64,000 nucleotides of DNA from assembly GCF_013167455.1 (NCBI RefSeq), contig NZ_CP038328.1. One strand, written 5' to 3'. The notes beneath the pieces are model-generated. The model saw only the letters and a program-made list of their open reading frames with translations, was not told where the DNA came from and ran no database searches. The DNA is from Escherichia coli O157:H7. GTDB lineage: Bacteria; Pseudomonadota; Gammaproteobacteria; Enterobacterales; Enterobacteriaceae. Positions 30,453 to 34,624 of this stretch are shown in pieces. The translations under genes were made by a program, and so were the position numbers. Positions within the stretch are counted from its first letter, which is position 1, and every line of letters starts with the position of its first letter.

Positions 30453-30787
30453 AAGTTTCCCTCTAACCGACATTAAAATTGATGCGTAATTATTTGTTTC
30501 GCCTTAAAGAAATGCAAACAACTTCCATCAGAAAGTGACACAGGAAGCATAAAATGTTTTATGTATCAATATATTAAATCAGATTTAGTGTAAATAATAG
30601 ACGCCAAAATGCGGCAAAGCACATAGAACACCGAACACTACGTTCGGGCTTCACACGTTCAAACCAGTTTTCGGTATCATAATCAGCATCTGTCGCCATT
30701 GTACGAAGAATAAAAAATAACCAAAACGTTGAAAGGAACTGAGAATACGTTAAGAGAAGAATTAAATTAATGTATCAGCAAGTAGTG

Positions 30788-31687
30788 CTAAACAGCACCT
30801 TTATACTTCAGCCTATCTATAAATAATGAGAATGCCGAGCCAGCATGTCGACGGTGTGGATAGTACAGGTGATAACCGGGTAAATCTGGTGTGAATTTAT
30901 CCAAAACACGTATCAGTTTTTTTTCTTTAATCGCCCGCTCAACCTGATCATAAGGTAGATACGCCAATCCATGCCCATCAATTGCAGCATCAATGATCAG
31001 GTCTATCGTATTCAGTAAAAGCTGACCTTCCATGCGAACACGAACTTCACGTCCACCGCGTATTAATCTCCAGCGATTTGCTGTACCCGATGTGGGAAGA
31101 TACAAATTAATTGCCTGATGATCTATTAATTGTGACACTGACGTTGGAACACTTCGGCGAGAAAAATAATCCGGTGAGCCAACAATAGCCATTGGTATAT
31201 CTGGCCCGATTCGAATGGCGATCATATCTTTATCCATCTCCCCACCCAGACGGACGCCTGCATCAAAACGTTCAGAAACGACATCAGTCAAACCATAATC
31301 AATGATAAGCTGAATATCAATTTCAGGGTGTGATTTCAGGAATGTGCGCATGGCTGGTAACAATATCGTTTTTGCTGCATGTTCTACAGTAGTAATACGT
31401 ATTGTCCCGGATGGGCGGTTCTGCAGATCGCTCAGGGATGCCAGGGCAGAATCTATGTCATGCAGCATAGGGCCAAGAACAGACAAAAGATGCTCGCCCG
31501 CTTCAGTGGGTACAACACTGCGCGTGGTTCGCGTCAGAAGCCGCAATCCCAATCGTTCTTCTATACGGCGCACTATCTGGCTTAAAGCTGACTGCGCCAT
31601 GCTCAGGCGGGCTGCTGCGCGAGTGAAGCTACGCTCCTCTGCAACGACGACAAACGCCATCAGATCAGCGATCTCTTCACGCTTCAT
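30788..31687 (-). CDS. pgrR: LysR-family regulator (peptidoglycan recycling regulator)
   Basis: 299 aa; N-terminal HTH; divergent from ycjY. Confidence 0.85.
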   Translation of the reverse strand: MKREEIADLMAFVVVAEERSFTRAAARLSMAQSALSQIVRRIEERLGLRLLTRTTRSVVPTEAGEHLLSVLGPMLHDIDSALASLSDLQNRPSGTIRITTVEHAAKTILLPAMRTFLKSHPEIDIQLIIDYGLTDVVSERFDAGVRLGGEMDKDMIAIRIGPDIPMAIVGSPDYFSRRSVPTSVSQLIDHQAINLYLPTSGTANRWRLIRGGREVRVRMEGQLLLNTIDLIIDAAIDGHGLAYLPYDQVERAIKEKKLIRVLDKFTPDLPGYHLYYPHRRHAGSAFSLFIDRLKYKGAV

Positions 31688-31712
31688 TCAGTATCTCCAT
31701 ACAATCTATTAA

Positions 31713-31726
31713 TCATTTAAATGATA
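31713..31726. promoter_or_regulatory. candidate LysR-type operator in the pgrR-ycjY divergent region
   Basis: perfect palindrome ATCATTTAAATGAT (T-N11-A type); GGTCTAATCA direct repeats downstream. Confidence 0.35.
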
Positions 31727-31812
31727 GGTCTAATCATGATTTAGGGTCTAATCAACTTAATGATCAATATCTATAGTGATATCACCAACCGTTAAAACGA
31801 ACCAACAACTCC

Positions 31813-32745
31813 ATGAGGAACGGAATGATGAATAATAAAGTCAGCTTCACTAACAGCAATAATCCAACCATCTCTTTGTCTGCAGTGATCTATTTTCCTC
31901 CAAAATTTGATGAAACCCGTCAATATCCGGCAATTGTGGTATCTCACCCAGGTGGGGGCGTTAAAGAACAAACGGCCGGGACCTATGCCGAAAAACTGGC
32001 GGAAAAGGGATTTGTCACTATTGCTTATGACGCATCTTATCAGGGTGAAAGTGGCGGCGAGCCGCGTCAGTTAGAAAACCCATACATTCGTACTGAAGAC
32101 GTCAGTGCCGTGATTGATTACCTGACAACGCTTTCTTATGTCGACAATACCCGAATTGGTGCGATGGGAATTTGTGCCGGTGCAGGATATACAGCCAATG
32201 CTGCAATTCAGGATCGCCGCATCAAGGCCATCGGTACCGTTAGTGCGGTCAATATTGGTTCGATGTTCCGTAATGGTTGGGAAAACAATGTGAAATCTAT
32301 TGATGCCCTGCCATACGTTGAAGCGGGTTCAAACGCCAGAACCAGCGATATTAGCAGCGGAGAATACGCCATTATGCCACTGGCACCAATGAAGGAGTCC
32401 GATGCGCCGAACGAAGAACTGCGTCAGGCCTGGGAGTATTACCACACCCCTCGCGCGCAGTATCCAACAGCACCGGGTTACGCTACTTTGCGCAGCCTTA
32501 ACCAGATTATTACCTATGATGCTTACCATATGGCGGAAGTGTACCTGACTCAGCCGACGCAGATTGTGGCGGGCAGCCAGGCAGGGAGCAAATGGATGAG
32601 TGACGACCTGTACGATCGGGCATCAAGCCAGGATAAACGCTATCACATTGTTGAAGGCGCAAACCATATGGATCTTTATGACGGCAAAGCCTATGTGGCT
32701 GAAGCAATTTCAGTATTAGCTCCGTTCTTTGAGGAAACTCTGTAA
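31813..32745 (+). CDS. ycjY: alpha/beta hydrolase (dienelactone hydrolase-like)
   Basis: 310-aa ORF; start may be the ATG at 31825. Confidence 0.8.
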   Translation: MRNGMMNNKVSFTNSNNPTISLSAVIYFPPKFDETRQYPAIVVSHPGGGVKEQTAGTYAEKLAEKGFVTIAYDASYQGESGGEPRQLENPYIRTEDVSAVIDYLTTLSYVDNTRIGAMGICAGAGYTANAAIQDRRIKAIGTVSAVNIGSMFRNGWENNVKSIDALPYVEAGSNARTSDISSGEYAIMPLAPMKESDAPNEELRQAWEYYHTPRAQYPTAPGYATLRSLNQIITYDAYHMAEVYLTQPTQIVAGSQAGSKWMSDDLYDRASSQDKRYHIVEGANHMDLYDGKAYVAEAISVLAPFFEETL

Positions 32746-33675
32746 TGAAACATATTCAAATCCGCAATAGTGATATGGCCTGGCATATTGCTGCCAATAT
32801 TCAGTTTCCACCAAATTTTGATGAGTCAAAACAGTATCCGGCGATTATCAGCGTCCATCCTTTTGGCAGTTGTAAGGAGCAGACGTCTGGCAATATCTAT
32901 GGCAAGGCATTGGCTGAAAAAGGCTATGTCGTTCTCGCTTATGACGCCAGTTTCCAGGGAGAATCTGGTGGGGAGCCTCGTTGGATAGAAGATCCGACAC
33001 AGCGCGTAGAGGATATTAGCCGTGTTATCGATTATGCAGTAACTCTGCCATATGTTGATGCTGAACGCATTGGCGTGCTGGGTGTGTGTGGGGGGGGGTG
33101 GCTATGCCATTAATGCCGCGCTGACAGAAAAACGAATTAAAGCTGTAGTGAGTATTACGGGTGTTAATATCGGGCGTCTTTTTCGGGAAGGTTTCAGCAA
33201 TTACGATCCGATTGGCGCATTGAATGCAATGGCGTCGCAACGAACCAAAGAGGCTCGTGGTGGAGAATTACAGATCAACGAATTACTTCCCGCCAGCCTG
33301 GATGCAGCAAAAGCCCATGGACTGACCGAACGCGATGTTTATGAAGCAACTGACTACTATAAAACACCACGCGGGCAACAACCGGGAGGTGCGACAAAAA
33401 TGTTGTTCTCACATGCACAGAAAACGCTGGCCTGGGATGCCTTCGCATTTACTGAAGTGTTACTGACTCAGCCGGTGATGGTAGTAGTTGGTGAAAAAGT
33501 CGGTGCCTTCGGTGCTTATCGTGATGGACTGGAAGTCTATGGCCGGGCGATGGTTTCGCAGGATCGTCAGTTAGTTTCATTACCCGATTTCTCACATTAT
33601 GAACTGTATGACAAACCGGAAGCAGTTCAGGAGGCGCTGGAAAAAGTTATTCCTTTTTTCAACACCCATCTGTGA
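32745..33675 (+). pseudogene. ycjY paralog (alpha/beta hydrolase) split by +1 frameshift at a G9 tract
   Basis: two ORFs (32745-33113, 33052-33675) in different frames, together colinear with YcjY; frame change at 33090-33098. Confidence 0.7.
33090..33098. repeat. homopolymeric G9 tract preceded by (GT)4
   Basis: GGTGTGTGTGGGGGGGGGTGG read directly. Confidence 0.9.
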
Positions 33676-33695
33676 TAAGTTTCATGAGAAATATT

Positions 33696-34334
33696 ATGAA
33701 AAATGTACTCATTCTTGGTGCTGGCGGTCAGATAGCCCGCCATGTGATTAATCAACTGGCAGATAAACAAACCATTAAACAAACTTTATTTGCTCGTCAG
33801 CCAGCAAAAATACACAAACCCTATCCAACTAATAGCCAGATTATTATGGGGGATGTACTGAATCATGCAGCACTGAAGCAGGCCATGCAGGGACAGGATA
33901 TTGTGTATGCCAACCTTACGGGGGAAGATTTAGATATTCAGGCAAATTCAGTGATCGCTGCGATGAAAGCCTGTGATGTTAAACGTCTGATCTTTGTTCT
34001 TTCCCTCGGCATTTATGATGAAGTTCCAGGAAAATTTGGCGAATGGAATAATGCAGTTATTGGTGAGCCCCTAAAACCATTCCGCAGGGCTGCGGATGCA
34101 ATTGAGGCTTCTGGACTGGAATATACAATTCTTCGCCCTGCCTGGCTGACGGATGAAGATATTATTGATTATGAGCTTACCTCACGCAATGAACCATTCA
34201 AAGGTACGATCGTATCACCTAAGAGTGTCGCAGCATTAATTACAGATATCATCGATAAACCTGAGAAACACATTGGTGAGAATATAGGCATCAATCAACC
34301 CGGGACTGATGGCGACAAGCCATTCTTCATGTAA
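33696..34334 (+). CDS. NAD(P)-binding Rossmann-fold protein (NmrA-like)
   Basis: about 212 aa from MKNVLILGAGGQIARH (GxGxxG type motif); the ORF is open from 33672. Confidence 0.7.
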   Translation: MKNVLILGAGGQIARHVINQLADKQTIKQTLFARQPAKIHKPYPTNSQIIMGDVLNHAALKQAMQGQDIVYANLTGEDLDIQANSVIAAMKACDVKRLIFVLSLGIYDEVPGKFGEWNNAVIGEPLKPFRRAADAIEASGLEYTILRPAWLTDEDIIDYELTSRNEPFKGTIVSPKSVAALITDIIDKPEKHIGENIGINQPGTDGDKPFFM

Positions 34335-34624
34335 ATCAATTATATAACCACCATCGTACTGTACTATGTGCAGTACGATTTATTAAACTTATTAAGGTGA
34401 ACTGATCAATCAGATGCGATTAACATGTGTAGAACCAGTAAGAATAAAATACGCCATGTATATAACATTACGACAATTCTAATATCTGCACATCAATGAA
34501 AATACAAACAACTTCCGGCAAAAAAGTGATACAAGATCGATGACATAGCGTTGAAGAAAAGGATTTGATAATCCGCAAAATTTGCACAACACTGCCTGTA
34601 ATACTTCCTGAACCAGAGACGATC

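What the first reader, a model, noticed from the sequence alone, without database searches (positions are those of the whole stretch)
30505..34535. Shared ~36-bp motif upstream of mppA and mpaA, with a weaker third copy at the ycjY start
GAAATGCAAACAACTTCCATCAGAAAGTGACACAGG (30511-30546, mppA upstream region) and GAAAATACAAACAACTTCCGGCAAAAAAGTGATACAAG (34493-34531, upstream of mpaA) match at about 30 of 36 positions. A weaker ACCAACAACTCCATGAGG lies at 31801-31818 just before ycjY. MppA imports murein tripeptide and MpaA cleaves it, and the LysR regulator PgrR is encoded between them, so a common cis element for co-regulation is plausible. It could be the PgrR operator or another shared site.
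Basis: inference. Interest (0 to 1): 0.4.

Follow-up and report, generated by a model that had tools for sequence, protein, structure and literature searches.

The report
Insertion scar flanking the pgrR cassette
The two similar ~36-bp sequences upstream of mppA and mpaA are the duplicated halves of one ancestral promoter-region sequence, split apart when a ~4-kb foreign gene cassette (pgrR-ycjY-ymjD-ymjC) was inserted between the two genes in the E. coli lineage; they are not a PgrR operator or a regulon motif.

Summary
The two-copy repeat is real: window 30510-30544 and 34500-34535, direct orientation, 30 of 37 aligned columns identical, 12-nt exact core. The third copy at 31801-31818 is at chance level.

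Comparative data explain the repeat. In 75 of 80 Enterobacteriaceae species loci, and in 174 of 5,426 complete E. coli genomes, mppA and mpaA are divergent neighbours. They are separated by about 182 bp that holds one copy of the sequence. In this window the same 182 bp is present, but the 36-bp unit occurs twice and brackets a 3,955-bp insert. The insert holds a queH remnant, pgrR, ycjY, a frameshifted ymjD and ymjC. Its four-gene core is 79% identical to cassettes on Klebsiella conjugative plasmids and on Raoultella and Kluyvera chromosomes.

The similarity therefore comes from a target duplication or att-like scar of a horizontal insertion, not from a shared operator.

- The left end of the unit is probably the -35 hexamer of the ancestral mppA promoter.
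- Published PgrR SELEX targets do not include these sites.
- The likely PgrR operator is a palindrome in the pgrR-ycjY spacer.
- The motif occurs nowhere else in E. coli genomes.
- The mechanism that produced so long a duplication, with no recombinase gene or inverted-repeat ends, is unresolved.

The parts
30510..30544 (+). Repeat copy 1 (mppA-proximal), 35 nt. It retains the ancestral left part. Its right part has lineage-specific changes: CCGGCA became CCATC-, A became G, and GTGATACAAG became GTGACACAGG.
34500..34535 (+). Repeat copy 2 (mpaA-proximal), 36 nt. It is identical to the ancestral unit except for G to A at 34504, a change seen in this window (O157/O55-like sequence) and not in the other four E. 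coli strains read.
30545..34499 (.). Inserted segment of 3,955 bp bracketed by the two copies. It is absent from 75 other species loci and from 174 E. coli genomes.
30788..34405 (.). Core of the insert shared at ~79% nucleotide identity with cassettes on Klebsiella plasmids and on Raoultella and Kluyvera contigs: pgrR (30788-31687, -), ycjY (31825-32745, +), frameshifted ymjD-like hydrolase (32745-33675, +), SDR ymjC (33696-34334, +).
30545..30787 (-). Inner-left flank of the insert, of unknown origin. It contains a queH pseudogene remnant (30616-30690).
34406..34499 (.). Inner-right flank of the insert, with no homology found. It is deleted in K-12-type islands.
30489..30518 (-). Predicted sigma-70 promoter of mppA: TTTGCA-18-AATAAT (or TTGCAT-17-AATAAT). 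The -35 hexamer lies inside copy 1, and both hexamers lie in blocks conserved across genera.
   Evidence: consensus scan and conservation; no transcription start site data
34565..34593 (+). Candidate mpaA promoter (TTGATA-17-AACACT) inside two strongly conserved blocks, 30-58 nt downstream of copy 2. This is read by eye.
   Evidence: the hexamer assignment is inference
31712..31764 (.). Candidate PgrR operator: perfect palindrome ATCATTTAAATGAT plus two GGTCTAATCA repeats, nearly invariant between E. coli and the Klebsiella cassettes.
   Evidence: PgrR SELEX target ycjY/ycjZ
31801..31818 (+). It is a chance resemblance that overlaps the ycjY Shine-Dalgarno region.
34353..34380 (+). Terminator-like hairpin after ymjC (12-bp stem, -19.3 kcal/mol, z = -4.55). 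It belongs to the cassette and is absent from K-12-type islands.
28839..30452 (-). mppA
34625..35353 (+). mpaA

Best explanation
The two copies are paralogues, made by direct duplication of a 30-36-bp stretch of the ancestral mppA<->mpaA divergent promoter region. They flank a ~3.95-kb horizontally acquired cassette (queH remnant, pgrR, ycjY, ymjD, ymjC) that was inserted there in the E. coli lineage. Shown: the ancestral state is one copy in a ~182-bp spacer; the window contains the same 182 bp with the unit doubled around the insert; the insert's core is a mobile cassette found at other loci and on plasmids. Inferred: copy 1 still works as the -35 hexamer and upstream DNA of the mppA promoter. 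Copy 2 is a relic about 65-100 nt upstream of the probable mpaA start site, with no demonstrated role. The duplication is a by-product of the insertion event (a long staggered target cut, an att-like crossover, or Campbell-type integration through ~30 bp of homology). It is not a site that evolved for co-regulation.
For: Unoccupied sites exist. E. coli wlxctx60 and 173 other complete genomes have mppA and mpaA 182 bp apart with one copy. So do E. albertii, E. whittamii and other Escherichia lineages, and Citrobacter, Enterobacter, Klebsiella, Kluyvera, Kosakonia, Leclercia, Lelliottia, Pluralibacter and others: 75 of 80 species loci in all. Joining window 30453-30526 to 34517-34624 gives exactly 182 bp, differing at 1 of 182 positions from the island-less E. 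coli FDAARGOS_497. In megablast, island-bearing genomes match the 182-mer from position 58 onward, which is exactly the left edge of the unit. Less-decayed copies in Escherichia sp. E1V33 differ at only 3 of 36 positions. All island-bearing strains share the 30-nt unit AAATGCAAA(C/T)AACTTCCGGCAAAAAAGTGA or direct derivatives of it. The cassette is foreign. It is 79% identical over window 30788-34405 to LysR + two alpha/beta hydrolases + SDR cassettes on Klebsiella conjugative plasmids and Raoultella/Kluyvera contigs in unrelated contexts, with more distant versions on Rhizobium and Agrobacterium plasmids. The motif occurs only at these two places in E. coli genomes: median 2 places per genome, 10,654 places in 5,418 genomes. 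It is absent from the true plasmids, phages and viral contigs searched. The mppA promoter hexamers fall in conserved blocks.
Against: No integrase, transposase or terminal inverted repeats lie in or next to the insert. A 30-36-bp duplication is much longer than ordinary transposon target duplications, so the mechanism is not identified. The right edge of the duplicated unit is fuzzy: it could be 30, 36 or up to ~48 bp. No transcription start site or binding data were available for either copy. Half of the unit's columns are conserved across genera, so a transcription-factor site within it cannot be excluded.
Confidence: 0.88

Rival explanations
1. The motif is a shared binding site for a regulator other than PgrR, which co-ordinates mppA and mpaA. 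In the ancestor one site served both divergent promoters, and the duplication left each gene with its own copy.
For: Two sub-blocks of the unit (AAATGCAAA and AAAG(T)TGAT) are conserved in 19 genus representatives; 18 of 36 columns are >=75% conserved. After the insertion each gene sees its copy at the ancestral distance and orientation. Both copies have stayed recognisable in all E. coli strains examined.
Against: The AAATGCAAA block is adequately explained as the mppA -35 hexamer. No dyad symmetry or known factor consensus was recognised by eye. There are no further copies anywhere in E. coli genomes. Mean conservation of the unit (0.76) is only slightly above that of the rest of the spacer (0.68), and the spacer has stronger blocks elsewhere. 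Copy 1 has lost CCGGCA and copy 2 in this strain has lost the G of ATGC.
Confidence: 0.2
2. The motif is the operator of the LysR-type regulator PgrR.
For: PgrR is encoded between the copies, and mpaA is listed in the PgrR regulon as part of ycjY-ymjDC-mpaA (PMC5934670).
Against: [quoted passage not shown] The conserved palindrome ATCATTTAAATGAT and the GGTCTAATCA repeats of the pgrR-ycjY spacer have no match near the copies. The motif is conserved at this locus in 75 species and 174 E. coli genomes that carry no pgrR there. The homologous cassettes elsewhere carry no such motif.
Confidence: 0.03
3. The repeats are functional recombination sites (attL/attR-like) of a decayed integrative element and still mediate loss of the island.
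For: The repeats are direct and bracket foreign DNA. Island-less alleles exist within E. coli. A queH remnant shows that the insert has decayed. The ~660-bp K-12-type deletion ends within 1-2 nt of the left edge of copy 2.
Against: There is no recombinase gene. No phage, plasmid or viral contig carries the sequence as a possible attP. None of the 174 island-less genomes matches the virtual precise-excision product exactly: the best is 99.5%, with the outgroup-type A instead of G at window 34543. This suggests never-occupied alleles rather than excisions. The integrase fragment next to the cassette in Kluyvera lies in a separate 1.5-kb insertion. The longest identical stretch between the copies is now 12-17 nt.
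Confidence: 0.1
4. The resemblance is a chance match between two A-rich intergenic regions.
For: Seven of 2000 dinucleotide shuffles reach the score, so the pairwise statistic alone is only moderately strong.
Against: The single-copy unoccupied sites, and the exact 57 + 36 + 89 = 182-bp arithmetic, cannot be explained by chance.
Confidence: 0.01

Closest known systems
Direct repeats (attL/attR-type) flanking genomic islands and islets
   Same: Two direct copies of a 30-36-bp chromosomal sequence bracket horizontally acquired DNA. Unoccupied alleles carry one copy. The cargo is found at other loci and on plasmids.
   Different: There is no integrase or excisionase. The target is a divergent promoter region rather than a tRNA/tmRNA or gene 3' end. 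No attP-bearing element was found. The island is only ~4 kb.
Transposon or insertion-sequence target-site duplication
   Same: A short direct duplication of the target immediately abuts the inserted DNA, with a sharp left boundary.
   Different: From general knowledge, usual duplications are about 2-14 bp, whereas this one is 30-36 bp. There are no terminal inverted repeats and no transposase.
Campbell-type integration of a circular molecule through a short homologous segment
   Same: It would produce exactly this geometry: the homologous segment is duplicated as direct repeats around the insert.
   Different: It needs a donor circle that already carried ~30 bp of the mppA-mpaA spacer, and no such donor was found. 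Thirty bp is at the lower limit for RecA-dependent exchange (general knowledge).
PgrR (YcjZ) LysR-type operator in the ycjY/pgrR spacer
   Same: Same gene neighbourhood. mpaA has been assigned to the PgrR-repressed ycjY-ymjDC-mpaA unit in K-12.
   Different: The sequences are unrelated: palindrome ATCATTTAAATGAT versus the non-palindromic motif. The motif is absent from the published SELEX targets and was present at this locus before the cassette was inserted there.

Membership tests
Flanking direct repeats of a horizontal insertion (insertion scar) | Two copies in direct orientation bracket one discrete segment | tested here: met
   30510-30544 and 34500-34535, both on the + strand, the only two copies in 64 kb
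Flanking direct repeats of a horizontal insertion (insertion scar) | Unoccupied sites exist with exactly one copy and otherwise identical flanks | tested here: met
   174 E. coli genomes and 75 species loci; the virtual junction is 182 bp with 1 mismatch
Flanking direct repeats of a horizontal insertion (insertion scar) | The bracketed DNA is of foreign origin and is found in other genomic contexts | tested here: met
   79% identical cassette on Klebsiella conjugative plasmids and Raoultella/Kluyvera contigs, in different neighbourhoods
Flanking direct repeats of a horizontal insertion (insertion scar) | A mobility gene (integrase or transposase) or terminal inverted repeats associated with the insert | tested here: not met
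   none found. This does not affect the scar reading, but it leaves the mechanism open
Flanking direct repeats of a horizontal insertion (insertion scar) | The copies were (near-)identical when formed | tested here: inconclusive
   33 of 36 identical in Escherichia sp. E1V33 and 32 of 36 in strain I2. The GTGA(C/T)ACA(G/A)G differences are shared by all island-bearing strains, so the true right edge may be at 30 nt
PgrR (LysR-type) operator | Sequence resembles the regulator's autoregulatory site in the pgrR-ycjY spacer | tested here: not met
   ATCATTTAAATGAT and GGTCTAATCA occur only at 31712-31764
PgrR (LysR-type) operator | The regulator binds the site | not testable with these tools
   The published SELEX target list for PgrR does not include the mppA or mpaA upstream regions (PMC5934670)
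PgrR (LysR-type) operator | The site co-occurs with the regulator gene across genomes | tested here: not met
   the motif is conserved where no pgrR is present at the locus; homologous cassettes elsewhere lack the motif
Regulon motif (shared transcription-factor site) | Further copies lie upstream of other functionally related genes | tested here: not met
   median 2 places per E. coli genome, highest 4; only 2 in the window
Sigma-70 promoter element of mppA (left end of the unit) | -35 and -10 hexamers with 16-18-nt spacing at a sensible distance from the start codon, conserved in orthologous regions | tested here: met
   (TTTGCA-18-AATAAT, 30518->30489, 9 of 12 matches); both hexamers lie in blocks >=90% conserved. 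The -10 hexamer is ~37 nt upstream of the ATG
Sigma-70 promoter element of mppA (left end of the unit) | An experimentally mapped transcription start site | not testable with these tools
   No transcription start site data were found in the papers searched

The most novel reading that the evidence does not exclude
The 30-36-bp duplication has no recombinase gene and no inverted-repeat ends. A later deletion in K-12-type islands ends within 1-2 nt of the repeat boundary. Together these could mark an unrecognised insertion mechanism, such as a very long staggered target cut or a site-specific activity acting at this promoter sequence. Such a mechanism would insert cargo into divergent promoter regions while regenerating the core of the promoter on both sides.
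Probability: 0.07. Interest if true: 0.55.

Novelty: new member of a known kind. Interest (0 to 1): 0.25.

Why it matters
The result shows that a repeated "motif" upstream of two functionally linked genes can be a historical scar rather than an operator. That matters for motif-based regulon inference.

It also gives a concrete history for a textbook K-12 locus. PgrR and its hydrolase genes are a horizontally acquired cassette dropped into the mppA/mpaA divergent promoter. The K-12 operon ycjY-ymjDC-mpaA probably exists only because a later deletion removed the cassette's terminator. About 3% of complete E. coli genomes still carry the unoccupied site, which makes them natural controls for testing what PgrR adds to peptidoglycan recycling.

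Tried and rejected
- **Sigma-54 promoter on the minus strand of copy 1.** TGGAAGTTGTTTGCAT has GG-N9-GC rather than GG-N10-GC, and copy 2 lacks the GG. Rejected by reading the sequence.
- **CRP, FNR, IHF, TyrR and CpxR-like half-sites.** Inspected by eye in the conserved blocks; no convincing match conserved across genera.
- **RNA element.** An Rfam scan of 28000-37000 at E<=1 found nothing at either copy; the only hit was a sub-threshold RAGATH-10 match inside pgrR.
- **attP search.** The exact 28-mer was searched in viral contigs. The 44-mer was searched by blastn against plasmids and phages. Nothing was found apart from E. coli chromosomal records filed as plasmids.
- **Donor search.**
  - PgrR homologues of 87-89% identity are widespread.
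  - Raoultella, Kluyvera and Klebsiella contexts share only window 30788-34405.
  - The inner flanks have no nucleotide or translated similarity there.
  - Those loci carry no motif.
- **Integrase fragment beside the Kluyvera cassette.** It sits in a separate 1.5-kb insertion that is absent from a sister contig, so it is not evidence for cassette mobility.
- **Inverted repeats at the insert ends.** None found.
- **Shimada et al. 2013 (PgrR paper).** It is not held in the library, so its PgrR box could not be read directly.
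Full report
**Locus and observation**

The window is E. coli, 100% identical over 30400-34700 to strain 119 and O55:H7 DEC5E. The layout is as follows:

| Feature | Coordinates | Strand |
|---|---|---|
| mppA | 28839-30452 | - |
| queH pseudogene remnant | 30616-30690 | - |
| pgrR | 30788-31687 | - |
| ycjY | 31825-32745 | + |
| ymjD-like hydrolase, frameshifted | 32745-33675 | + |
| SDR gene ymjC | 33696-34334 | + |
| mpaA | 34625-35353 | + |

That is 2-5 nt from the stated coordinates. Both lie on the + strand. 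Thirty of 37 aligned columns are identical, with one 1-nt gap and a 12-nt exact core found nowhere else in the window.

The pairwise statistic alone is moderate: score 21.5 against 13.3 +/- 1.8 for shuffles, with 7 of 2000 shuffles reaching it.

The third copy at 31801-31818 is at chance level: 101 of 2000 and 905 of 2000 shuffles reach its score. It is the ribosome-binding-site region of ycjY and is homologous to the same position in the Klebsiella plasmid cassettes.

**What the repeat is**

A megablast of the region against 5,426 complete E. coli genomes turned up genomes in which only ~8% of the query matched and mppA and mpaA were adjacent (hit H25). In strain wlxctx60 the two genes are 182 bp apart with one copy of the motif. 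The mppA-side flank is identical to the window. In all, 174 complete genomes have such a contiguous site.

A scan of one genome per species with MpaA returned 80 loci:

- In 75 loci, mppA and mpaA are divergent neighbours 138-316 bp apart (182 bp in Escherichia). These include E. albertii, E. whittamii and further Escherichia lineages, and Citrobacter, Enterobacter, Klebsiella, Kluyvera, Kosakonia, Leclercia, Lelliottia, Pluralibacter, Trabulsiella and Yokenella.
- Only Escherichia sp. E1V33 shares the E. coli insert.
- Salmonella arizonae and diarizonae, and one "Citrobacter sp.", carry unrelated insertions without a duplication.
- One contig was too short to tell.

The arithmetic is exact. 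The window holds 57 bp (30453-30509), then the 36-bp unit, then 89 bp (34536-34624), which totals 182 bp. A virtual junction made inside the 12-nt core differs at 1 of 182 positions from island-less E. coli FDAARGOS_497, at 10 from the clade strain MOD1-EC7003 and at 21 from E. albertii. Island-bearing genomes align to that 182-mer from position 58, which is the left edge of the unit.

The ancestral state is therefore one copy. The window has the unit doubled around a 3,955-bp insert (30545-34499).

**Size and age of the duplication**

In E1V33 the copies are AAATGCAAATAACTTCCGGCAAAAAAGTGACACAGG and AAATGCAAACAACTTCCGGCAAAAAAGTGATACAAG, which differ at 3 positions. In E. coli I2 and K-12-type strains copy 1 reads ...CCATCAAAAAAGTGACA.... 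The window has further changes: a 1-nt deletion and A to G in copy 1, and ATGC to ATAC in copy 2.

The left boundary is sharp. The right boundary lies between 30 nt (...GTGA) and 36 nt, because the two differences in GTGA(C/T)ACA(G/A)G are shared by every island-bearing strain examined. Weak similarity continues for about 12 more nt.

**The insert is foreign**

Window 30788-34405 covers pgrR, two alpha/beta hydrolases, the SDR gene and its terminator-like hairpin. This stretch is ~79% identical to cassettes on conjugative plasmids of Klebsiella aerogenes, K. variicola and K. pneumoniae. It is equally similar to cassettes in Raoultella and Kluyvera contigs. Each of these sits in a different neighbourhood. 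More distant versions are on Rhizobium and Agrobacterium plasmids.

PgrR homologues of 87-89% amino-acid identity are widespread in Enterobacteriaceae.

The 243-bp inner-left flank (with the queH remnant) and the 94-bp inner-right flank match none of these loci. None of these loci carries the motif. No integrase, transposase or terminal inverted repeat is present. No phage, viral contig or true plasmid carries the motif.

The event is clear, but its mechanism is not. Possibilities include a long staggered target duplication, an att-like crossover of a decayed element, or Campbell integration through ~30 bp of homology.

**What the sequence does**

Aligning 72 single-copy spacers shows several conserved blocks. 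On the mppA sense strand, TTTGCA/TTGCAT (30518-30512, inside the unit) and AATAAT (30494-30489) form a sigma-70-like promoter with 17-18-nt spacing. The consensus scan also picked it up. Both hexamers lie in blocks >=90% conserved in 19 genus representatives. The left end of the unit is therefore most likely the mppA -35 hexamer. This is inferred; there are no transcription start site data.

A second sub-block, AAAG(T)TGAT, is also conserved, and its role is unknown. It could be upstream promoter DNA or a factor site. Overall, 18 of 36 unit columns are >=75% conserved. Mean conservation is 0.76, against 0.68 for the rest of the spacer.

Stronger blocks lie between copy 2 and mpaA: GAAA..ATTTGAT and TTTTGCACAACACTG. 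These contain a possible TTGATA-17-AACACT promoter, read by eye. Copy 2 would then sit about 65-100 nt upstream of the mpaA start.

Because each gene kept its copy at the ancestral distance and orientation, the apparently opposite orientation of the two copies relative to their genes is simply the ancestral geometry.

**Why it is not a PgrR operator or a regulon motif**

[quoted passage not shown] The listed regulon is ycjG, ycjXF-tyrR and ycjY-ymjDC-mpaA. Neither list includes mppA or a site upstream of mpaA (PMC5934670).
- The pgrR-ycjY spacer holds a perfect palindrome ATCATTTAAATGAT and two GGTCTAATCA repeats. These are almost invariant between E. coli and the 79%-identical Klebsiella cassettes, and they occur nowhere near the motif copies.
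- The motif is conserved where no pgrR is present at the locus.
- It occurs only twice per E. coli genome: 10,654 places in 5,418 genomes, median 2.

**Status of the island-less E. coli alleles**

A crossover in the identical core would recreate the ancestral sequence, so the junction itself cannot tell an excision from a never-occupied site.

However, every island-bearing E. coli strain read (window, I2, EC-1639 and two K-12-type strains) has G at window 34543. The outgroups have A there. So do the E. coli island-less strains read directly (CFSAN061771, FDAARGOS_497 and wlxctx60). Among the 174 island-less genomes, the best match to the virtual excision product is 99.5% and none is exact. This is weak evidence that the island-less alleles were never occupied, or were re-imported, rather than recently excised.

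The longest identical run between the copies is now 12 nt in the window and 17 nt in other E. coli strains. From general knowledge, that is short for RecA-dependent exchange.

**Comparison with known kinds, and verdict**

The geometry is that of direct repeats flanking a genomic islet. It meets three defining features: direct copies, a single-copy empty site and foreign cargo. It fails a fourth, an associated mobility gene or inverted-repeat ends. That failure leaves the mechanism open but does not weaken the scar reading.

The repeat is not a member of the PgrR-operator class or of any regulon motif. The case appears undescribed in the literature searched, but it is an ordinary kind of evolutionary event, so interest is low to moderate.

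The residual novelty lies in three points: the unusually long duplication, the lack of a recognisable mobility apparatus, and the coincidence of the K-12-type deletion endpoint with the repeat boundary.

Noticed in passing
window 30616-30690 (-), within the inner-left flank 30545-30787: A remnant of a queH (epoxyqueuosine reductase) gene, translating to ...[25 protein letters not shown]. PGAP annotates it as a partial pseudogene in the identical strain 119. This flank is not shared with the homologous cassettes of Klebsiella, Raoultella or Kluyvera, so it may point to the true donor.
   Followed up: partly
window ~33837-34498, compared with L085, L086 (K-12-type strains) and L005 (Escherichia sp. 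E1V33): K-12-type islands carry a ~660-bp deletion from inside ymjC. Its right endpoint falls within 1-2 nt of the left boundary of repeat copy 2 (...CCAACTAAT|AAAATGCAAAC). The deletion removes the terminator-like hairpin at 34353-34380. That loss may be why K-12 transcribes ycjY-ymjDC-mpaA as one PgrR-controlled operon. In the long form seen in this window, mpaA may be insulated from that transcript.
   Followed up: partly
window 33081-33100 (ymjD-like hydrolase, 32745-33675): The second alpha/beta hydrolase gene is frameshifted in a run of G residues in this window (ORFs 32745-33113 and 33052-33675). It is intact in E. coli strain I2 and in the Klebsiella cassettes.
   Followed up: no
window 31712-31764: A perfect 14-bp palindrome ATCATTTAAATGAT is followed by two GGTCTAATCA repeats in the pgrR-ycjY spacer. 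They are nearly invariant between E. coli and the 79%-identical Klebsiella plasmid cassettes, and are the likely PgrR operator.
   Followed up: partly
L001 3126-3235 (E. coli wlxctx60; 8 genomes share this allele): This island-less allele differs from the window at 27 of 182 spacer positions. All 27 lie between the motif core and the mpaA start codon. The mppA side of the spacer (positions 1-72) shows no mismatch, and MpaA is 100% identical over the tblastn alignment. In places the patch resembles Citrobacter spacers, which suggests a short imported recombination tract.
   Followed up: partly
L023 6848-10000, L025 6562-10000, L056 811-10000, L080 9685-10000, L012 1047-1274: The same mppA-mpaA spacer has been hit independently by other insertions, none with a duplication. 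Salmonella arizonae and diarizonae carry three lipoprotein-like ORFs (3.1-3.4 kb) that replace the mppA promoter blocks. One "Citrobacter sp." carries ~9 kb. Kluyvera genomosp. 1 carries ~130 bp. C. koseri carries ~46 bp.
   Followed up: partly
window 30486-30500, 34555-34570 and 34579-34594: Three blocks of the ancestral spacer outside the repeat are at least as conserved across genera as the repeat itself: GTAATTATTTGTTTC, GAAA..ATTTGAT and TTTTGCACAACACTG. The last is a 15-mer that is nearly invariant in 19 genera. It may be more than a -10 region, possibly a factor site controlling mpaA.
   Followed up: no
one search hits H1 and H6 (E. coli DEC5E and 2012EL-2448): Some strains carry IS insertions (ISEc20, IS3 family) inside the island. 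Three structural forms of the island co-exist in E. coli. The long form covers >=80% of the query in 1,282 genomes. The other two forms, one with ymjD deleted and the K-12 form, cover about 79% and 64% of the query.
   Followed up: no
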